Below are positions 1,035-7,681 of a stretch of 64,000 bases of DNA, piece by piece. The position numbers and the translations under genes are program-made. The notes below the pieces were generated by a model. That model was not told the DNA's origin. It did no database searches and saw only the letters and a program-made list of their open reading frames with translations. Position 1 is the first letter of the stretch. Every line of letters starts with the position of its first letter. The DNA comes from a virus. Lineage: Duplodnaviria > Caudoviricetes. The DNA lies in IMG/VR virus record IMGVR_UViG_3300025154_001556; one strand, 5' to 3'.

Positions 1035-1063
1035 AGTATATAACATTAATCAGTTTTCGTCAA
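1035..1063 (-). promoter_or_regulatory. sigma70-type promoter upstream of the SSAP gene
   Basis: TTGACG-N17-TATACT on the minus strand. Confidence 0.7.
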
Positions 1064-1214
1064 CAACTTTTATAACTGACTTGCATTTTTTGTCGCACTT
1101 GCATTCTTTAATGTATGGTACTTTGCCAGCTTCTCCTACTGAGTTTTCAATACCACCGTATTCACCTGAGATATGACAAGCACATTCATCACTACATTTA
1201 CACTCATCTGACAT
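1050..1214 (-). CDS. small Cys-rich protein (54 aa)
   Basis: Likely start is MSDECK at 1214 (SD GGAGG). The longer track ORF runs through the tRNA. 7 Cys in CxC/CxCH clusters. Confidence 0.55.
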   Translation of the reverse strand: MSDECKCSDECACHISGEYGGIENSVGEAGKVPYIKECKCDKKCKSVIKVVDEN

Positions 1215-1235: not shown

Positions 1236-1306
1236 TGTCCCGTAGAGGAATTGAACCCCTTTAAGCGAGTTTAGAGTTCGCCGCAACGCCTGTCTGCCAA
1301 CGGGAC
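1236..1306 (-). tRNA. tRNA with CUA anticodon (amber suppressor); no encoded CCA
   Basis: GTCCCGT-TG-GCAG ACAGGCG TTGC-G-GCGAA CTCTAAA CTCGC-TTAA-AGGGG TTCAATT CCTCT-ACGGGAC-A: perfect 7-bp acceptor stem, D-loop GG, TTC T-loop, one A-C mismatch in the anticodon stem. Confidence 0.88.
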
Positions 1307-1307
1307 T

Positions 1308-1904
1308 TTATGCTGTAATATTTTTGATAGCACTATAATGGTTCCAGATTTCTAAATCAAGTTCGGCGACCGTTTTATTGTATTTATATGCTAGTTTAAC
1401 AAATTCTTGTTCTAATTGCAAGTATTTTCTTTTGGTAGGTGTTGCTTTTGGTGCATCAAACCCCATAAGGCGCATAAATTTAAGTATATGGGTATCTAAC
1501 CCAGCGCAGTTTGCGTTCTTTCTACTATGTATAATAAAACACCTGGCTGTTTTCATTCCTATGCCGTGTATTTTTTCTAAGTCTTCTACGGCGCACTTTT
1601 TTAAATCCAACCCACAACAAGCCAGAGCTATAAAAGTTTTGGCTTTATTGTTATAACAACCTATGCCACAAGATCGTAATAGGTTATCTATACCGTGGAG
1701 CGGGGTACCTACATTGTTAGCAGCATAAGTAAGTATAGCATTAAATGGGGTTTCATCATTATGTGTTATTTTATTGAGCAATGTTTCTAGGCAACGTGCT
1801 GCTGTCTTACCGTTCTTTCCAGCAGCACATACCCAGAATAGTAGGCTCTCTTGTAGTTGAGCCGTAGTTTGATTATAGTTTGTTATGTTGTTTGGATCAA
1901 TCAT
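1308..1904 (-). CDS. HhH-GPD DNA glycosylase/AP lyase (Ogg/EndoIII-like)
   Basis: HhH motif IHGIGMKTAR followed by LDTHILK with the catalytic Asp. Confidence 0.75.
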   Translation of the reverse strand: MIDPNNITNYNQTTAQLQESLLFWVCAAGKNGKTAARCLETLLNKITHNDETPFNAILTYAANNVGTPLHGIDNLLRSCGIGCYNNKAKTFIALACCGLDLKKCAVEDLEKIHGIGMKTARCFIIHSRKNANCAGLDTHILKFMRLMGFDAPKATPTKRKYLQLEQEFVKLAYKYNKTVAELDLEIWNHYSAIKNITA

Positions 1905-2191
1905 AATAGTTGTAACTTTTTAAAAACTTTATCTTCGGCTACTGCTGCTATGGCAGTTAATTCATAGTTCATATCAGGCTCCCTAAAACTCTTCCAGGCC
2001 ACGCCAATCAAATCTAACTTATCACCCCAGTATTTAAGTATATCTTCATTCTTGACTTGCAGATATATTAAAGTGCCGTTGGTCCAAGAGGTTTTATAAT
2101 TAAGTAAATATTCAGCTAAGGCGTGGCCTGCTTGTATGGCCTGTTGTATTTTAGTTAAATCTTTTCTAACAAGCACATACATCTTTTTCAT
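1901..2191 (-). CDS. peptidyl-tRNA hydrolase 2 (Pth2)-like protein
   Basis: MYVLVRKDL...QAGHA...FREPD...LTAIA motifs. Confidence 0.8.
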   Translation of the reverse strand: MKKMYVLVRKDLTKIQQAIQAGHALAEYLLNYKTSWTNGTLIYLQVKNEDILKYWGDKLDLIGVAWKSFREPDMNYELTAIAAVAEDKVFKKLQLL

Positions 2192-2474
2192 ATTGCTTCA
2201 TCACCTCCTCCAATAAATTACTATACGGCGGATTGTAATTAGGTGATCCTGGTACCTCTATTTTTTCCATAGGAGTACCATGTAATAAGCAATATACAAT
2301 ATGTTTATATCTAAACTTTTCTTTAAGTTTGTTTAAATAGCACAGCTCTAATGTGTATTTATTATATATATTAGCACGTTGTGCTTCTTTGTAGCTTAAC
2401 CTGGTTGATCGTATTGAGCTTGCCAATTGTTTAAGTTCTGCTTTAAGTAGCGGCAGTTTTGTTTTCCGTGACAT
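2166..2474 (-). CDS. hypothetical phage protein; first gene after the RAPP leader
   Basis: ORF with SD AAGGAG; RYKHIVYCLLHG motif. Confidence 0.7.
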   Translation of the reverse strand: MSRKTKLPLLKAELKQLASSIRSTRLSYKEAQRANIYNKYTLELCYLNKLKEKFRYKHIVYCLLHGTPMEKIEVPGSPNYNPPYSNLLEEVMKQYEKDVCAC

Positions 2475-2483
2475 AATTATTCT

Positions 2484-2533
2484 CCTTTAATTTGATTAAT
2501 AATAAATTAATTAGTTTAATATCAAATTAAAAG
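2484..2533 (-). promoter_or_regulatory. hairpin sequestering the Shine-Dalgarno site of ORF 2166..2474
   Basis: 5' arm CTTTTAATTTGAT (2533-2521) pairs with 3' arm ATCAAATTAAAGG (2496-2484): 13 bp with one GU, including AAGG of the SD. Confidence 0.7.
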
Positions 2534-2566
2534 TCACGGTGGTGCTCTGGCCTACGTCCAAATCAT
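2534..2566 (-). CDS. leader peptide MIWT-[TAG]-ARAPP (amber-interrupted arrest-type uORF)
   Basis: GGAGG SD (2577-2573), then ATG ATT TGG ACG TAG GCC AGA GCA CCA CCG TGA. Confidence 0.7.
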
Positions 2567-2581
2567 AGTTGTCCTCCTATA

Positions 2582-4003
2582 TTATAGGTCTATTGGAAAT
2601 TTTTTTAATGTTGTTGCTGTATACCCGCGCCAATCACCGGCGTATACTTGCCCATTATACTTCATGTATTCATACATATCAGTGCTATTTAATTTATTAA
2701 GTAATAATTCAGCGTCCACAGTAAACTCACTAAGAACTAAACCTGATCTAACAAGGCTATTATCTAATTCAGAGGTTAGAATAAAGTTAGGTTTATCGTT
2801 TAGAGCAGATGTAACTATACACCGCCCTCCAAAATTGCGCAAGCCTTGTTTTCTGCCAAATTCAAACCATTTATATCCCTTACTTTTACCCTTGTCCCTT
2901 TTTAAAAGTTCCTCCTTATGGTATAAAAGATATTTATATGTTTCAGGAAATCTTGTAGCAAATTTATTCTCATCCAAACAAGTTAAATCAGGTAGGTAAG
3001 GAAATATAATTTGATACTCTGTGTTTATTATGTCTGCTTCTGTTTTTACTACTGATAATTTTACAAGTTTTTTTACTGCTGTTTTTTCAATTTTAAAATT
3101 ATCTACATAAATATAAGTATTATCTACTTTATCTGGTTTTAAAACAAATATGTTGTCTCGTAAAGTGGCAATACCGCCTGTAATTTTACATACATCCCCT
3201 AATACTGCGTTTTTAGTGTTTTGTATTACTATACCATTGTCTACAAACATGTTTCTGTCTATGGCATAGTCATTACCATATAAATTATAGGTAAATGTCT
3301 TATCTATGCTAAACAAATCTTTATTTTTTACCATATAAAGTATGGCAGTATACGCGCCGCATGAAAACTGTTTAGTAGAACCATGGTCTTTTACATAAAA
3401 CACATAATTAGTTATATTATTTCTTAAATTACGGCCGGCCTTAGATCTAAGATATGATGATGGTGTTATTAATGCAACCACACCACCTGGTTTTACTAAC
3501 TCTAAAGCCCTTTGTATAAAAGCATAGTATATATCAGTTGCGCCATTAGCACAGACGGTATAATTATTTTTTAGTAAAGGCCTATATGAGTCATCTAAAT
3601 TTTGTAGTCTTATATAGGGCGGATTACCAATTACAATGTCATATGTATTTTTTAATAGTTTTTTTGTAAATAGGGCATCGCTTTCAAGTATTGTTGGGTG
3701 TATAGATAGATTTGAAAAAATATTTCTAGCCTCGATAACAAAAGTAGTGTCCTTCTCAACAAGTGTTACCAAATTAGCTGCTTCATCAAGAGGCATCCCG
3801 TATTTTGCTGACAACATACCAATAAAATAATAAGCAAACACACCAGTGCCTGCCGCCAAGTCTAAAATACTTGGGCACTTTTTTGTGTCTAATAAGTTCA
3901 AAGCGGTGGAGCACATTTCTTCTACAATATTTTCTGGCGTGAAATGTGCCCCGGATAACTTTCTAAACTCATCAGTTCTTAATATATCTTTGTAAAAATC
4001 CAT
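2582..4003 (-). CDS. N6-adenine DNA methyltransferase, gamma class (Eco57I/TaqI-like)
   Basis: Motif I ILDLAAGTGVF and motif IV GNPPY, followed by a C-terminal target-recognition region. Confidence 0.9.
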   Translation of the reverse strand: MDFYKDILRTDEFRKLSGAHFTPENIVEEMCSTALNLLDTKKCPSILDLAAGTGVFAYYFIGMLSAKYGMPLDEAANLVTLVEKDTTFVIEARNIFSNLSIHPTILESDALFTKKLLKNTYDIVIGNPPYIRLQNLDDSYRPLLKNNYTVCANGATDIYYAFIQRALELVKPGGVVALITPSSYLRSKAGRNLRNNITNYVFYVKDHGSTKQFSCGAYTAILYMVKNKDLFSIDKTFTYNLYGNDYAIDRNMFVDNGIVIQNTKNAVLGDVCKITGGIATLRDNIFVLKPDKVDNTYIYVDNFKIEKTAVKKLVKLSVVKTEADIINTEYQIIFPYLPDLTCLDENKFATRFPETYKYLLYHKEELLKRDKGKSKGYKWFEFGRKQGLRNFGGRCIVTSALNDKPNFILTSELDNSLVRSGLVLSEFTVDAELLLNKLNSTDMYEYMKYNGQVYAGDWRGYTATTLKKFPIDL

Positions 4004-4008
4004 ACCAG

Positions 4009-4683
4009 TTAAAGTGATTCAATATATGTAGTTAATGACACTGATCTGGGCACGTAAACACTTGTTGTATCGATATAAACAGAAGAGTCAAGTTGTCTAT
4101 AAGGAACAAGTACTACATTTACACCTTTACTTAACAGCGACAAATATCTAGCTCTAGAGTGCACGTGTTCTGGATCATTGAGATCCAGAAAAGCCATAAA
4201 AGTAAAGTAGTTTCCGACCACACCTGTTCTGTATTCCATAAGTTTATTATATTGTACATGCCTACCTAATATATCTCTAGCCATATTTGCACTATTTTTA
4301 GCGAGGCTTTGTGTTGCTGCTCTAATTTCTAAACCATGGATAGGAGCTATGTCTAAAAGATCATTATAGTAATCTTCTTTATTCATATAAGTGGCATCAA
4401 CAGTGATTGTATCTTGACTTACAAATCCACCGTAGTTAAACACGTGCTTAAAGGTTAAGTCTGCCTTAGAGGAGGTGCCCTCAGTATGCACACGGCGCTT
4501 ACCCTTAGCTAAGTACATATATCTACAAGCTTGATAAACTTTATATAATTTTGTATCACTTCGTTGCGCATTTTGCCCTGAATAATTTTCAAAAAATTCA
4601 AACATACCTTCTAACCCGCGCTCAAAATTGGCCACAAGGTCCTGTGTAGAAACTTCTTTTGCTATCGCTAATTCTCCAGTCAT
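4009..4683 (-). CDS. hypothetical protein; possible PD-(D/E)XK restriction endonuclease partner of the MTase
   Basis: Directly upstream of the MTase. KADL...LEIRAATQSLAKNSANMARDILG resembles REase D...ExK..S..N..N...E..G patterns. Confidence 0.35.
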   Translation of the reverse strand: MTGELAIAKEVSTQDLVANFERGLEGMFEFFENYSGQNAQRSDTKLYKVYQACRYMYLAKGKRRVHTEGTSSKADLTFKHVFNYGGFVSQDTITVDATYMNKEDYYNDLLDIAPIHGLEIRAATQSLAKNSANMARDILGRHVQYNKLMEYRTGVVGNYFTFMAFLDLNDPEHVHSRARYLSLLSKGVNVVLVPYRQLDSSVYIDTTSVYVPRSVSLTTYIESL

Positions 4684-4734: not shown

Positions 4735-4763
4735 AGTACAGCACATGTACAATACAATGTCAA
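4735..4763 (-). promoter_or_regulatory. sigma70-type promoter for the REase-like/MTase/leader run
   Basis: TTGACA-N17-TGTACT. Confidence 0.55.
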
Positions 4764-4772
4764 CAACTTTTA

Positions 4773-6563
4773 TTACACCCTTGTATTAATACTCCAACCT
4801 TTGTAGTGTTCTGCAGTCATCGTAGCACCCAGATCTGGATTTCTTATGTAATTACGCCATGTGGCATCTACCACACCATCTTTTGTGACATACCAGAAAT
4901 CTTCTACATAGTTGTAATTATCTTTAAGTGGTACTCTTTCATCTATTGCTAAGTCAGTGGCGTAGTATGAACCCTCTATCGGCACCCATTCACCATCGTC
5001 CCGTTTGAATGCTCCCCAACCATGTCCCGCTATGGAGCTACTTGACATAGCCCCTGTGCCGGCTTTAACTAAACCACCATACATTCTTAAACGTGAGGGG
5101 TCTACACCGGAATGTAATGCCAAACTTGTTATAAGGAAAGCCATATCCTCACAATTATGGCATATATGACCAAACTTACTTACGAACGTATGAGTATCAG
5201 CCACCATAAAGTCACGAGTATTGGTGCTGCCCATAGGTTTAACACTGTGTATGGACACTTCGCTTATACCGTCGTACCCGTAGTCCTTTGCAAAATAGCT
5301 ATTAGAGTTATAACTAAGTCGCCATATGGGTTTGTTGCCCACCCCTTTATGGTCTTTTTGTAACCACATATGAATAGGTATGCCCAACTGCATGTGCAGT
5401 CTCTGTAGGTCGTAAGCTAACTTGTACGAGCTAGTTGAATAGGTCTTTTCTTTGTTAGAGTTTTCAGCATATTTTGAGTAATGACCATCCCCAAGAAAGT
5501 GTCCATTTATTATAGCATATAGTTTATTCGCTGGCAAGTAAAATAGTTCTTCCGGTATATTAATATCAAAACTATTGACTTTACAAAGCCTTAAATACTG
5601 CTTCAACTTTGAGCTCAAAAAATTAAGGTAGGGCACACCACTGTTATTAGTAGTAATACTATATGGTATGTTATATTTATCCAAAATAGGTACTATACTT
5701 GTGGGTACATCATAACCACTTGTTCTAACGTGACTACGGTCTGTATCACCTTCAGCTAAAAAATGCCCTATAACAAAACATAAATCTTCGGTAAGCCAGT
5801 CAATGTCTTTAATTACATATGGTAGTTTTTTAACACAAGGTATTTTACGTTTCCACCACCTGCTAAGGTCTATATCACATAGCTTAGTTTTCTCATAGTC
5901 AGAATACTTTTGTACACGCCTAGTCCAGAAAGGGTGGTCCTCTGTCACGTCTATCCAGGTACCATTAGTAAATTTCACCCTAAAAATAGGTAGATTTCCC
6001 TTCTCCCATATTTTAAGCACAGGTTTATAACAATAACTTTTTTTGTTAAAGTCATAAGATAGAACTATGTCCCCTACTTGTAAAGCGCCTACTTCTTTGA
6101 GGCCATCCTTTGTCCAAATTTCCTCATAGTTAGCAGTACAATCCCCGTCCTTATGTAAAAGCGTCTCTGTTGGGTAAGCCCAGTACTCATCGGGGCCGTA
6201 GTTCATGTCATCAGTTTGATAAGTAATATTGCTATTTACCCATTGTTCAACAGCATACATTTTTTCAGTATCTGTTGTAGTGCCTTTGGTTATTTCTGCA
6301 GCGAGTTTAAATAATCTGGTATTGGGATATTCAAAGTATTTATTGTAGTCCAAATCTTGGCCGGCGGCTTTACCACTAACCGCACCATTAAAACGCAAAA
6401 GTGCCACATCAAGAGCTGATTTTGTGTTCATCAGGTCTTGTATAAAGGCACTTGCTGAGTTGGGTTCTGTTTTAAAACTATCCCAAATGGTGGCGGATTT
6501 CCAATTATTGATTTGAGGTAGTAACTCAGATATAAAATTAGATACGCTACTGATTGAAGACAT
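4773..6563 (-). CDS. transglutaminase-like cysteine protease domain protein containing an intein
   Basis: The spliced product reads YWAYPTETLLHKDGD/CEDMAFL...GHGW (transglutaminase GDCED motif plus catalytic His). Confidence 0.85.
   Translation of the reverse strand: MSSISSVSNFISELLPQINNWKSATIWDSFKTEPNSASAFIQDLMNTKSALDVALLRFNGAVSGKAAGQDLDYNKYFEYPNTRLFKLAAEITKGTTTDTEKMYAVEQWVNSNITYQTDDMNYGPDEYWAYPTETLLHKDGDCTANYEEIWTKDGLKEVGALQVGDIVLSYDFNKKSYCYKPVLKIWEKGNLPIFRVKFTNGTWIDVTEDHPFWTRRVQKYSDYEKTKLCDIDLSRWWKRKIPCVKKLPYVIKDIDWLTEDLCFVIGHFLAEGDTDRSHVRTSGYDVPTSIVPILDKYNIPYSITTNNSGVPYLNFLSSKLKQYLRLCKVNSFDINIPEELFYLPANKLYAIINGHFLGDGHYSKYAENSNKEKTYSTSSYKLAYDLQRLHMQLGIPIHMWLQKDHKGVGNKPIWRLSYNSNSYFAKDYGYDGISEVSIHSVKPMGSTNTRDFMVADTHTFVSKFGHICHNCEDMAFLITSLALHSGVDPSRLRMYGGLVKAGTGAMSSSSIAGHGWGAFKRDDGEWVPIEGSYYATDLAIDERVPLKDNYNYVEDFWYVTKDGVVDATWRNYIRNPDLGATMTAEHYKGWSINTRV
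5154..6140 (-). mobile_element. intein (329 aa) with LAGLIDADG homing endonuclease
   Basis: Block A CTANYEEIWTKDG, block B VTEDHPFW, LAGLIDADG helices VIGHFLAEGD and IINGHFLGDGH, block F/G DFMVADTHTFVSKFGHICHN followed by Cys+1. Confidence 0.92.
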
Positions 6564-6876: not shown

Positions 6877-7536
6877 CTATTTAATTTTTCGTCCTCTAAC
6901 CCAACCCAAATTTTCCAACGTATTAAGTTCTTCTTTGTTTATGGACCTACTTTCATGAGTGTAAGGGCAGTAAATCCACACGGTACCATAGCGAGAATTA
7001 AGTTGTCCTGCTTGCTTTATTGAGTTTTTTCTACCAATTATATTCTTAGTTTCTTGTGTATGCTTTTTACCGTAAAAAGCGTTTTTAGTCCCTTTATGCT
7101 TACCGGTATGGGATTTACTAATTTTATCTTTATACTTTTCCCATCTGCCAGAAGCTATTAAAAGTGTCTTTAATTTATTACCACACACTAAATTTTCTTG
7201 CCCATAACCTTTTTGGCCATTTTTCCCATATAAATTTAATTTGAATTCATTTATGGTAGCTATATTTTTATAGCCGCCCTCAATTAAATTATATGTAAAT
7301 GGGTGTTTAACAAAGTCTTTGTTTACTAAGATTTCTTCAAGCTCCGACATGTCCTCGTGATTATCAAATACGGCCAGGATGTCTTTTTTAAAATTTTGTA
7401 TACCGTATTTTCGTTGAGCGGCTATAAGATGCCGCCCTGAACCCATATATGTGTCATCAACATGCGCAGTTCTATGGCAACCTATATAAATTTTATTATT
7501 AATGATGTTTGTTATTTTATATACAACATAAAACAT
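6877..7536 (-). CDS. free-standing GIY-YIG homing endonuclease with NUMOD3-like repeats
   Basis: VYKITNIINNKIYIGCH...YMGSG and HTQETKNII. Real start is probably MFYVVY at 7536, since the track start overlaps a tRNA. Confidence 0.88.
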   Translation of the reverse strand: MFYVVYKITNIINNKIYIGCHRTAHVDDTYMGSGRHLIAAQRKYGIQNFKKDILAVFDNHEDMSELEEILVNKDFVKHPFTYNLIEGGYKNIATINEFKLNLYGKNGQKGYGQENLVCGNKLKTLLIASGRWEKYKDKISKSHTGKHKGTKNAFYGKKHTQETKNIIGRKNSIKQAGQLNSRYGTVWIYCPYTHESRSINKEELNTLENLGWVRGRKIK

Positions 7537-7595
7537 ATAATAATTCCTGACACTTAAATAAAAAATTATTGTATTTGTATAAACATAATAATAAG

Positions 7596-7681
7596 TGGAG
7601 CCTAGAGAGGGATTCGAACCCCCGATGTGTTTTACCACGACAGCTTACAAAACTGCTGCTATACCCCTTAGCGATCTAGGC
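7596..7681 (-). tRNA. tRNA-Thr(UGU) with an atypical long variable arm; CCA encoded
   Basis: GCCTAGA/TCTAGGC acceptor, U73, CCA; anticodon arm GCAGT TTTGTAA GCTGT; 16-nt extra arm CGTGGTAAAACACATC; T-arm GGGGG TTCGAAT CCCTC. Confidence 0.8.

What the first reader, a model, noticed from the sequence alone, without database searches (positions are those of the whole stretch)
1236..2577. The leader-controlled gene run carries Pth2 and the amber suppressor tRNA: possible feedback circuit
Seen: the order leader, hypothetical protein, Pth2, HhH glycosylase, tRNA(CUA), Cys-rich ORF, all co-oriented with overlapping or very short spacers. I saw no terminator among them. Known: Pth2 recycles peptidyl-tRNA released from stalled ribosomes. 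Inference: the suppressor tRNA could promote readthrough of the leader and so induce Pth2 and its neighbours. This would be a phage-encoded translation-termination stress response or infection timer. I am not aware of a described example.
Basis: inference. Interest (0 to 1): 0.85.

Follow-up and report, generated by a model that had tools for sequence, protein, structure and literature searches.

The report
Stop-codon-gated leader switch with suppressor tRNA
A groundwater jumbo phage carries a small gene cassette whose short leader reaches its ribosome-stalling Arg-Ala-Pro-Pro motif only if the cassette's own UAG-reading tRNA overrides a stop codon. It therefore looks like a natural "is stop-codon readthrough working?" switch for two neighbouring genes, and I found no published description of it.

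Summary
On the minus strand, with no terminator-like site between them, lie an 11-codon leader (M-I-W-T-UAG-A-R-A-P-P-UGA), a hairpin that encloses the next ribosome-binding site, a 102-aa helical protein, a 96-aa Pth2-fold protein, an Ogg-like HhH protein, tRNA(CUA) and a Cys-rich ORF.

Sixteen distinct relatives keep a leader of the form "start, 1-7 codons, UAG, then RxPP or PP", followed by an anti-Shine-Dalgarno hairpin, the helical protein, the Pth2-like gene and tRNA(CUA). One relative carries an ochre tRNA(UUA), and its leader stop is UAA. A second clade has no leader and instead puts UAG at codon 2-9 of the Pth2-like gene itself. Arg and Pro codons downstream of the UAG change synonymously, so that stretch is translated. 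The phages use the standard code.

The closest relative lacks the leader, both proteins and a functional tRNA together.

What the two proteins do is unknown. "Stress response" and "timer" remain guesses, and nothing here is experimental. The HhH and Cys-rich genes are not part of the conserved core.

I found no published description. This scan has already noted the same cassette on other DNA (at least 17 genomes).

The parts
4735..4766 (-). Promoter-like element (TTGACA at 4763-4758, weak -10) upstream of hyp224. Probable start of the transcript that runs into the leader.
   Evidence: Sequence. Its -35 region is identical to the element directly upstream of the leader in L078. The consensus scan does not list it.
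2582..4683 (-). Block of two genes lying between the promoter-like element and the leader in this phage only: hyp224 (4683-4009) and an Eco57I-type N6 DNA methyltransferase (4003-2582).
   Evidence: Pfam Eco57I 6e-25 and N6_Mtase 1.6e-11. The block is absent from relatives L001, L078 and L081.
2573..2578 (-). Shine-Dalgarno sequence AGGAGG of the leader.
   Evidence: It lies 6 nt before the ATG.
2534..2566 (-). Leader ORF M-I-W-T-UAG-A-R-A-P-P-UGA. UAG at 2554-2552, RAPP codons at 2548-2537.
   Evidence: Conserved as MIWT-UAG-(T/V)RGPP-UGA in L078, L081 and L082, with synonymous Arg and Pro codon changes. Analogous leaders occur in 12 further distinct loci.
2466..2539 (-). Hairpin that encloses the ribosome-binding site of hyp102. 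The outer stem pairs CCGUGAC (second Pro codon, stop codon and one further base) with GUCACGG (G of the AUG plus codons 2-3). The inner stem pairs UUUUAAUUUGAU with AUCAAAUUAAAG, which runs into the SD.
   Evidence: Minimum free energy -24.3 kcal/mol, z = -3.2, 0 of 200 shuffles fold as well. The hairpin stays intact with a ribosome at UAG and is lost with a ribosome at Pro-Pro. The outer stem is invariant in the 4 close relatives.
2166..2474 (-). hyp102, a 102-aa helical-hairpin protein with the motif FR(H/Y)xHIAYCLLxG...IE. It ends in UAG.
   Evidence: No Pfam or PHROG hit. Fourteen aligned relatives. Fused to the Pth2-like protein in L023/L024. Model pLDDT 85.5 with no informative fold match.
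1901..2191 (-). Pth2-fold protein of 96 aa with invariant QAxQ..H and F.EP...T motifs.
   Evidence: Pfam PTH2 E = 0.005, below cut-off; phrog_3668 4e-14. Model pLDDT 91.8. Top PDB matches are all Pth2 (3erj, 2zv3, 1xty, 1q7s; TM 0.71-0.80).
1308..1904 (-). HhH/Ogg-like protein of 198 aa, translationally coupled to the Pth2-like gene (ATGA overlap). A lineage-specific passenger, not part of the conserved core.
   Evidence: Pfam Ogg-HhH 38.2 bits against a cut-off of 27; phrog_11575 1e-39. Nineteen relatives in huge phages lack the cassette.
1236..1306 (-). tRNA with anticodon CUA (amber suppressor). 71 nt, A73, no encoded CCA, class I.
   Evidence: ARAGORN. Rfam tRNA 42.8 bits. Cloverleaf fold.
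1050..1214 (-). Cys-rich 54-aa ORF with its own SD. Not part of the conserved core.
   Evidence: It is 80% identical in L001, which lacks the cassette. No family hit.

Best explanation
The region is a suppression-gated translational switch.

Ribosomes load on the leader's strong Shine-Dalgarno sequence. Without readthrough they terminate at UAG (codon 5), about 13 nt short of a stable hairpin. That hairpin holds the ribosome-binding site and start codon of the next gene (hyp102) in a closed structure, so hyp102 and the translationally coupled Pth2-like and HhH genes stay off.

When the phage's tRNA(CUA) decodes the UAG, the ribosome runs on into Arg-Ala-Pro-Pro-UGA. RAPP and RGPP are the strongest known bacterial arrest cores. 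A ribosome held there sits on the 5' arm of the hairpin (the second Pro codon, the stop codon and the following bases are that arm). This frees the ribosome-binding site and turns on hyp102 and the Pth2-fold protein.

The outputs are therefore made only while amber suppression is actually working.

What is shown: the anatomy, its conservation, the match between leader stop codon and tRNA anticodon, and the standard genetic code of these phages.

What is inferred: the arrest itself, the opening of the hairpin, and that the tRNA is made and charged.

My guess for the outputs, held at low confidence, is a tRNA-ester hydrolase with a helical partner. It would either limit the suppressor (a brake or homeostat) or clear peptidyl-tRNA and stalled ribosomes produced by readthrough.
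For: 1. Leader, hairpin and gene order are as described.

2. Sixteen distinct leaders share the design 'ATG, 1-7 codons, stop, 3-11 codons, Pro-Pro'. They come from the window and from L078, L081, L082, L020, L021, L022, L023, L025, L084, L085, L086, L088, L089, L095 and L096. Arg sits two residues before Pro-Pro in 12 of them: RAPP x2, RGPP x6, RSPP x3, RDPP x1.

3. A regular-expression scan of 1.03 Mb of fetched loci gave 19 UAG hits on the gene strand, all upstream of the hyp102-like or Pth2-like gene. The controls gave 2, 1, 1, 0 and 0 hits (other strand or other stop codons).

4. Downstream of the UAG, Arg is AGA or CGT and Pro is CCA or CCG in close relatives, while the peptide is kept. 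That is selection at the protein level, so the stretch is translated.

5. L095 carries tRNA(UUA) and its leader reads MTHFL-UAA-MPRGPP.

6. In all 8 leaders folded, an unrelated sequence within 0-6 nt after Pro-Pro pairs with the downstream SD or start codon (-12 to -20 kcal/mol). The hairpin persists with a modelled ribosome at the gate codon and is lost with one at Pro-Pro.

7. A second clade of at least 12 distinct loci has UAG at codon 2-9 of the Pth2-like gene with no other start codon available.

8. 23 of 30 distinct short-form Pth2-like loci have a suppressor tRNA within 4 kb, against 0 of 33 long-form loci (Fisher p = 2e-11).

9. In the complete 176-kb genome G003, the tRNA(CUA) lies 82 kb from the 22-tRNA cluster but next to the cassette.

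10. The code is standard. 12 of 82 window ORFs end in TAG. Coding coverage does not rise specifically when TAG is read as sense. Large terminase genes are open.

11. hyp102-like and Pth2-like proteins are fused in L023/L024.

12. L001, whose HhH protein is 85% identical, lacks the leader, hyp102 and Pth2-like genes, and its tRNA position holds a remnant with a 12-nt deletion that is no longer recognised as a tRNA.

13. RAPP and RGPP give robust arrest that EF-P does not relieve and that needs little N-terminal context (PMC12992588).
Against: - Nothing is experimental. No RNA data set holds this DNA.
- Arrest by a nascent chain of only 8-16 residues has not been shown.
- Four leaders lack Arg (CEPP, FKPP, LKPP) or have it at -1 (IRPP).
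- In some loci the Pro-Pro codons are themselves part of the anti-SD stem (L095, L022). RNA pairing could therefore contribute to their conservation.
- A strong amber suppressor should be costly to a phage in which 15% of ORFs end in UAG.
- The amino acid carried by the tRNA is unknown.
- The catalytic Lys of Pth2 is not conserved in this family, so hydrolase activity is uncertain.
- Whether the tRNA shares the transcript in this window is unknown. A weak promoter-like site lies inside the HhH gene at 1360-1332.
Confidence: 0.7

Rival explanations
1. Transit rather than arrest. The switch works by simple translational coupling: any ribosome that passes the UAG unwinds the hairpin as it reaches the leader's end. 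On this reading the CCN-CCN codons are kept mainly because CC-rich RNA is a good anti-SD or stem element, not because Pro-Pro stalls the ribosome.
For: In L095 the codons CCU CCG pair with the CGGAGG of the downstream SD. In L022, CCA CCU UUU UUU AUU pairs with AAUAAAAAAAGG. In the window, the second Pro codon starts the outer stem. Four leaders lack the RxPP form.
Against: Arg two residues before Pro-Pro is kept in 12 of 16 leaders, and through a synonymous AGA/CGT change. It lies outside the stems. In L020 and L025 the hairpin starts after the stop codon, so Pro-Pro is not in the stem at all. RAPP and RGPP are exactly the two strongest arrest cores (PMC12992588).
Confidence: 0.15
2. The leader senses release factor 1 activity, meaning termination efficiency at UAG in the infected cell, rather than the phage tRNA as such. 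This would resemble the way prfB senses RF2 at an in-frame UGA.
For: Readthrough depends on competition between RF1 and the tRNA, so the same cis element would respond to loss of RF1. The UAA variant could likewise sense RF1/RF2.
Against: The gate codon matches the adjacent suppressor tRNA's anticodon: UAG with CUA in 15 loci and UAA with UUA in one. The tRNA is lost together with the cassette in L001. Without a suppressor, natural readthrough of UAG is very low (established knowledge).
Confidence: 0.08
3. These are stop-codon-recoded (code 15) phages. The UAGs would then be ordinary sense codons, and the cassette would simply be part of the late, recoded gene set.
For: Phage tRNA(CUA) genes are best known from TAG-recoded phages (bioRxiv 10.1101/2021.08.26.457843; PMC13037316).
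Against: The window has 90% coding coverage under code 11, and 12 of 82 ORFs end in TAG. No other UAG-gated ORF exists on the coding strand of the 64-kb window. The complete genome G003, and G001, show no TAG-specific gain in coding coverage. Terminase genes have no internal stops. The UAGs sit only at the extreme 5' end of the cassette genes or in the leader.
Confidence: 0.04
4. Coincidence. On this reading a four-codon mini-ORF ends at UAG, and the RAPP in the same frame is chance.
For: A single RAPP somewhere in the six-frame translation of 64 kb is not improbable on its own.
Against: The design is conserved in 16 distinct loci with a near-zero background rate. There is peptide-level selection after the UAG. 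One locus shows the matched UAA/UUA pairing.
Confidence: 0.03

Closest known systems
RAPP/RGPP-type ribosome arrest peptides (ApdA, ApdP, ApcA, the Streptomyces RAPP/RGPP peptides; related RAG-P of SecM)
   Same: An R-(A/G)-P-P core at the very end of a small upstream ORF. Arrest is expected with RAP-tRNA in the P site and Pro-tRNA in the A site. The downstream gene is controlled through an RNA structure that the stalled ribosome opens (PMC12992588, PMC10951233).
   Different: The known examples are secretory or membrane 'monitoring substrates' whose arrest is relieved by pulling force. This peptide is only 10 residues long and has no targeting segment. The regulated step comes before the arrest: whether an in-frame UAG is read through. 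It is phage-borne and linked to a suppressor tRNA.
Translation attenuation by leader peptides (ermC, cat/cmlA) and tRNA-supply-sensing leaders (trpL, hisL, pheL)
   Same: A short leader ORF whose ribosome position decides an alternative RNA structure that hides or exposes the next ribosome-binding site. As with trpL, the sensed quantity is the availability of one specific charged tRNA.
   Different: The sensed tRNA is a nonsense suppressor, and the sensor codon is a stop codon. Successful decoding switches the genes on, whereas in trpL decoding favours termination. No antibiotic or amino acid is involved.
prfB (RF2) autoregulation through an in-frame UGA
   Same: An early in-frame stop codon is used as a sensor of termination versus continuation, and the outcome sets expression of a translation factor.
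   Different: prfB continues by +1 frameshifting and senses a release factor. Here continuation is by suppressor tRNA readthrough in the same frame, followed by an arrest motif and a hairpin.
Stop-codon-recoded phages with suppressor tRNAs (code 15/4: crAss-like, Lak, Jade and others) and their proposed 'code-change modules'
   Same: A phage-encoded tRNA(CUA) that overrides UAG in a standard-code host, with the idea that readthrough gates expression of particular genes.
   Different: These phages are not recoded. The only UAG targets found are the cassette's own leader or the 5' end of its own genes. No release factor or aminoacyl-tRNA synthetase is present in the module.
Synthetic amber-gated circuits (for example the suppressor-tRNA feed-forward 'leak dampener', PMC7969014)
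   Same: The same logic: a target is made only if a co-expressed suppressor tRNA reads an amber codon placed at its 5' end.
   Different: Those circuits are engineered and place the amber codon inside the coding sequence. The natural version in this window adds an arrest motif and an SD-sequestering hairpin.
PTH2 of jumbo phages (Iyer et al. 2021, PMC7824862)
   Same: A Pth2-fold protein encoded by large phages, proposed there to release peptidyl-tRNA during ribosome rescue.
   Different: That survey does not mention a suppressor tRNA, stop-codon gating or a leader. This short-form family falls below the Pfam cut-off and lacks the Pth2 catalytic Lys.

Membership tests
RAPP/RGPP-type arrest peptide | An R-(A/G)-P-P core at or near the C-terminus of a small ORF upstream of the regulated gene | tested here: met
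   The window has ARAPP-stop. Close relatives have (T/V)RGPP-stop. 12 of 16 leaders have RxPP.
RAPP/RGPP-type arrest peptide | A downstream ribosome-binding site sequestered in a structure that the arrested ribosome disrupts | tested here: met
   By prediction only: z = -3.2. Constrained folds of 8 loci.
RAPP/RGPP-type arrest peptide | Arrest demonstrated by peptidyl-tRNA accumulation or toeprint | not testable with these tools
   Needs in vitro translation.
RAPP/RGPP-type arrest peptide | Monitoring-substrate architecture: an N-terminal signal or transmembrane segment, with arrest released by secretion or insertion | tested here: not met
   The peptide has 10 residues and no hydrophobic segment. 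The input is an in-frame UAG.
Pth2 peptidyl-tRNA hydrolase (PF01981) | Sequence score above Pfam's gathering cut-off | tested here: not met
   17.5 bits against 23. The fused L023 protein scores 20.9 bits. A profile search of PDB sequences gives E = 0.019 to MJ0051.
Pth2 peptidyl-tRNA hydrolase (PF01981) | The Pth2 alpha/beta fold | tested here: met
   Model pLDDT 91.8. The top 13 PDB matches are all Pth2 or the Pth2-like Atu0240, with TM 0.71-0.80 and probability 1.0.
Pth2 peptidyl-tRNA hydrolase (PF01981) | Catalytic Lys (in the GK motif before AQxxHA) and catalytic Asp (in DAGxT) | tested here: inconclusive
   In the HMM alignment the Lys position holds Q, H or A, and the invariant neighbour is Gln17. 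An invariant Glu71-Pro72 lies where Pth2 has R-D. The residue assignment for Pth2 is from my memory of the S. solfataricus work.
Pth2 peptidyl-tRNA hydrolase (PF01981) | Hydrolysis of peptidyl- or N-acyl-aminoacyl-tRNA | not testable with these tools
   Needs an enzyme assay.
Stop-codon-recoded (code 15) phage | Phage-encoded tRNA(CUA) | tested here: met
Stop-codon-recoded (code 15) phage | Many genes with in-frame TAG, and low coding density under code 11 | tested here: not met
tRNA (RF00005) | Cloverleaf scoring above the Rfam gathering score, with a 7-nt anticodon loop | tested here: met
   42.8 bits against 29. ARAGORN finds anticodon CUA with loop CUCUAAA.
HhH-GPD/Ogg-type glycosylase (the 198-aa protein) | Ogg-HhH domain above the Pfam cut-off | tested here: met
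   38.2 bits against 27. Catalytic residues were not examined.

The most novel reading that the evidence does not exclude
The cassette is a self-contained, mobile circuit that senses readthrough. The suppressor tRNA would be a private key whose only conserved targets are the cassette's own leader or gene starts. The Pth2-fold enzyme and its helical partner would act back on that tRNA, or on ribosomes it has misled. The result would be a natural homeostat or timer for stop-codon suppression in phages that otherwise keep the standard code. It might also be the stepping stone from which full stop-codon recoding evolves.
Probability: 0.3. Interest if true: 0.9.

Novelty: new variant of a known kind. 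Interest (0 to 1): 0.8.

Why it matters
Suppressor tRNAs in phages that keep the standard code have had no known target. This cassette gives them a conserved one, and two independent designs (leader switch and UAG inside the coding sequence) gate that same target.

It would also be the first natural arrest-peptide switch whose input is decoding of a stop codon. That extends RAPP/RGPP arrest peptides to phages and to a new kind of signal.

The hypothesis is cheap to test with reporter fusions in E. coli carrying standard amber suppressors. If it works, it would provide a compact natural part for sensing or gating amber suppression in genetic-code-expansion work.

It also points to a tRNA-related activity for an uncharacterised Pth2-fold family and its helical partner.

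Tried and rejected
- Near-identical DNA in the deposited phage collection: no match. An exact leader search in viral contigs: none.
- No whole genome is held for the window.
- hyp102: no Pfam or PHROG family. A direct peptide-pattern search in viral contigs found nothing. Relatives were found only through the protein database and by synteny.
- Fold searches with the hyp102 model (PDB, AlphaFold clusters, ESM Atlas) gave only generic helical hairpins, so no lead.
- Complex prediction of hyp102 with the Pth2-like protein: no verdict (score 0.26, mark 0.32). It counts neither way.
- Sequencing runs: no RNA holder listed.
- tRNA identity by nearest neighbour among 94 phage tRNAs: inconclusive for the window's tRNA. 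Several relatives lie nearest to the single tRNA-Lys in the set, and the ochre tRNA is class II and Ser-like.
- RNAalifold on the four close relatives: the outer stem is invariant, so there is no covariation to count. The inner stem was misaligned.
- Rfam: no known cis-regulatory family at the leader.
- Scan of cellular genomes: only 8 hits, all on short MAG contigs.
- HhH and the Cys-rich ORF as cassette members: rejected, because both occur without the cassette.
- Literature searches for a description of the circuit found none.
Full report
**What is there.**

All genes at the low-coordinate end of the window lie on the minus strand. Reading 5' to 3' on that strand:

- A promoter-like element: TTGACA at 4763-4758 with a weak -10.
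- hyp224 (4683-4009).
- An Eco57I-type N6 DNA methyltransferase (4003-2582).
- A strong Shine-Dalgarno sequence, AGGAGG (2578-2573).
- A leader, ATG ATT TGG ACG TAG GCC AGA GCA CCA CCG TGA (2566-2534), which reads M-I-W-T-UAG-A-R-A-P-P-UGA.
- A 59-nt spacer.
- hyp102 (2474-2166).
- A 96-aa Pth2-like gene (2191-1901), overlapping hyp102 by 26 nt.
- A 198-aa HhH/Ogg-like gene (1904-1308), joined by an ATGA overlap.
- tRNA(CUA) (1306-1236; ARAGORN, Rfam 42.8 bits).
- A 54-aa Cys-rich ORF (1214-1050).

No terminator-like site lies on this strand between 2578 and 1050.

'Pth2' needs a qualification. Pfam PTH2 scores below its cut-off (17.5 against 23 bits). A confident model (pLDDT 91.8) nevertheless matches only solved Pth2 enzymes at the top of the PDB search (TM 0.71-0.80).

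**The hairpin.**

The RNA from the leader into hyp102 folds at -24.3 kcal/mol (z = -3.2; none of 200 shuffles folds as well). The outer stem pairs CCGUGAC with GUCACGG. CCGUGAC is the second Pro codon, the stop codon and one further base. GUCACGG is the G of the hyp102 AUG plus codons 2-3. The inner stem runs into the hyp102 SD. The ribosome-binding site is thus enclosed between two stems (2539-2466).

With a modelled ribosome footprint at UAG the hairpin is untouched. With the second Pro codon in the P site its 5' arm is covered and the structure is lost.

**Relatives: the decisive evidence.**

The HhH protein has 19 relatives in huge phages. None has the leader, hyp102, the Pth2-like gene or a tRNA(CUA) nearby. 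HhH and the Cys-rich ORF are therefore passengers.

The Pth2-like protein gave a very different picture. Of 41 viral loci, 25 hold a tRNA(CUA), and in the closest loci it lies directly downstream. Upstream of those closest genes is a hyp102-like gene with the conserved motif FRHxHIAYCLLRG...IE. In L023/L024 it is fused to the Pth2-like protein.

Upstream of the hyp102-like gene there is always a short ORF with an in-frame UAG followed by Pro-Pro. Closer relatives found through hyp102 have MIWT-UAG-TRGPP-UGA or MIWT-UAG-VRGPP-UGA. A profile-based search added more.

In all I count 16 distinct leaders:

| Locus | Leader (# = UAG) |
|---|---|
| window | MIWT#ARAPP |
| L078, L081 | MIWT#TRGPP |
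| L082 | MIWT#VRGPP |
| L020 | MTKH#LIRPP |
| L021 | MTAFYFP#IRDPPF |
| L022 | MMPFQ#IVRGPPFF.. |
| L023 | MKKT#VIGKSYCEPP |
| L025 | MT#KFKPP |
| L084 | MT#GIEKQRSPP.. |
| L085 | MT#GFDKQRAPP.. |
| L086 | MT#VNIPRSPPY |
| L088 | MK#INNYLNQQFRGPP.. |
| L089 | MT#VRNVLKPP |
| L096 | MRPFF#ILRSRSPP.. |
| L095 | MTHFL-UAA-MPRGPP.. |

**Statistics and controls.**

- In 1.03 Mb of fetched loci, the leader pattern with UAG on the gene strand occurs 19 times, always at the expected place. The five controls (other strand or other stop codons) gave 2, 1, 1, 0 and 0 hits.
- Among distinct short-form Pth2-like loci, 23 of 30 have a suppressor tRNA within 4 kb. Among long-form loci the figure is 0 of 33 (p = 2e-11).
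- In the complete 176-kb genome G003, the tRNA(CUA) lies 82 kb from the cluster of 22 other tRNAs but next to the cassette. The linkage is therefore not a side effect of tRNA islands.

**Three natural experiments.**

1. L095 carries an ochre tRNA(UUA), a class II tRNA unrelated to the others. Its leader stop is UAA, followed by RGPP, and those codons pair with the downstream SD.
2. A second clade has no leader. It places UAG at codon 2-9 of the Pth2-like coding sequence, with an SD and ATG upstream and no alternative start codon. This holds in at least 12 distinct loci. A neighbouring conserved 190-aa gene often shows the same M-x-UAG start. That is a second route to the same logic.
3. L001 is the closest large relative, with an HhH protein 85% identical. 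It lacks the leader, hyp102 and the Pth2-like gene. Where the tRNA should be, it has a remnant with intact acceptor halves but a 12-nt deletion in the T arm. Neither ARAGORN nor Rfam calls it a tRNA. The cassette and its tRNA were lost together.

**Is the stretch after the UAG translated?**

Among the four close relatives, ATG ATT TGG ACG TAG is invariant. The following codons change synonymously: Arg is AGA or CGT, and Pro is CCA or CCG. The one amino-acid change is Ala to Gly, which turns RAPP into RGPP.

RAPP and RGPP are exactly the two cores reported to give robust arrest. That arrest is not relieved by EF-P and needs little N-terminal context. The motifs tend to lie at the C-termini of small ORFs upstream of regulated genes (PMC12992588). 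This is peptide-level selection downstream of a stop codon.

**Not a recoded phage.**

- The window has 90% coding coverage under code 11, and 12 of 82 ORFs end in TAG.
- No other ORF on its coding strand has a 5' UAG gate.
- The loci, and the genomes G001 and G003, gain no more coverage from reading TAG as sense than from reading TGA as sense.
- Terminase genes are uninterrupted.

**Mechanism proposed.**

Ribosomes that terminate at UAG stop short of the hairpin, and the outputs stay off. Ribosomes that read through reach R-A-P-P-stop and pause on the 5' arm of the hairpin, which exposes the hyp102 ribosome-binding site. The Pth2-like gene (26-nt overlap) and HhH (ATGA overlap) would follow by translational coupling.

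In each of the 8 loci folded, a different sequence plays the anti-SD role at the same position. This argues for a conserved function rather than conserved sequence.

- Shown: the anatomy, its conservation, the match between stop codon and anticodon, and the standard code.
- Inferred: the arrest, the opening of the hairpin, and the expression and charging of the tRNA.

**What the outputs do.**

This is the weak part.

The Pth2-like family keeps QAxQxxH and F.EP....T as invariant positions. The position of the Pth2 catalytic Lys is variable. hyp102 is a helical hairpin with no informative structural relative.

Phage tmRNA genes lie near the cassette in the second clade. Jumbo-phage PTH2 has been discussed as a ribosome-rescue factor (PMC7824862). 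The suppressor tRNAs are of diverse origin, so the inserted amino acid probably does not matter.

I favour a tRNA-ester hydrolase that either limits the suppressor or clears products of readthrough or arrest. I would not put more than about 25% on either.

**This window's peculiarity.**

In L078 and L081 a sigma-70-like promoter lies directly upstream of the leader. In the window the same -35 region (AAAAGTTGTTGACATT) lies upstream of hyp224. The hyp224-methyltransferase block therefore appears to have been inserted between the promoter and the leader.

**Prior knowledge.**

Full-text searches found phage stop-codon recoding, RAPP arrest peptides, jumbo-phage PTH2 and synthetic amber-gated circuits. 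None describes this natural circuit.

This scan's own notes already record the same cassette in at least 17 other genomes. From those notes I took two leads and tested both here: that the gate codon matches the tRNA, and that a neighbouring gene is also gated. A later check recorded there rightly stresses two points: nothing is experimental, and a strong suppressor should be costly.

**Verdict.**

The regulatory reading is supported by strong comparative evidence. The biological role is open. I class it as a new variant of arrest-peptide translational attenuation with a new kind of input.

Noticed in passing
L095:3026-3120 and tRNA at L095:4604-4694: An ochre version of the cassette. The leader reads MTHFL-UAA-MPRGPP.. 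and may be on a leaderless mRNA, since TTGACA-N17-TACCAT lies just before the ATG. It sits next to a class II tRNA(UUA). The RGPP codons pair with the SD of the hyp102-like gene.
   Followed up: partly
L026-L028, L032, L040, L042, L044, L046, L052 (Pth2-like gene starts near 5000 in each locus): A second clade has UAG at codon 2-9 of the Pth2-like coding sequence. A conserved neighbouring gene of about 190 aa often also starts M-x-UAG. Phage tmRNA genes lie within a few kb.
   Followed up: partly
L001:6596-6660: A decayed tRNA remnant in the closest relative. The acceptor halves are kept, a 12-nt deletion removes half of the T arm, and neither ARAGORN nor Rfam calls it a tRNA. That relative also lacks the leader, hyp102 and the Pth2-like gene.
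   Followed up: yes
window 4773-6563 (-): A transglutaminase-like protein interrupted by an intein with a LAGLIDADG domain (Hint and LAGLIDADG hits). L001 has the same 596-aa form. L078 and L081 have an intein-free 267-270-aa version.
   Followed up: partly
window 6877-7638 (-) and tRNA-Thr 7596-7681 (-): The listed 253-aa ORF starts inside tRNA-Thr, so its N-terminus is probably spurious. The real gene probably begins further in and encodes a GIY-YIG-type homing endonuclease (assigned by eye from the sequence, not searched).
   Followed up: no
window 2582-4683 (-): hyp224 plus an Eco57I-type N6 methyltransferase lie between the promoter-like element and the leader. Relatives lack this block. 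No restriction endonuclease partner was seen next to it.
   Followed up: partly
window 2166-2180 (-): hyp102 itself ends in UAG. Readthrough would add only four residues (K-R-F-N) before a UAA. The stop codon of this gene is not conserved in relatives.
   Followed up: partly
L030, L035, L037-L039, L043, L045, L047, L055, L057: The long-form (about 180-aa) Pth2-like genes have no UAG gate. They lie in a conserved neighbourhood with a TROVE (Ro60-like) protein, a cold-shock protein, a dCMP-deaminase-like protein and a gp30.3-like protein. Some have a tRNA(CUA) about 4.6 kb upstream.
   Followed up: partly
window 1050-1214 (-): A 54-aa protein with 8 Cys residues in CxC and CxxxC patterns. It is 80% identical in L001 and has no family hit. 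It is probably a small metal-binding protein of unknown role.
   Followed up: no
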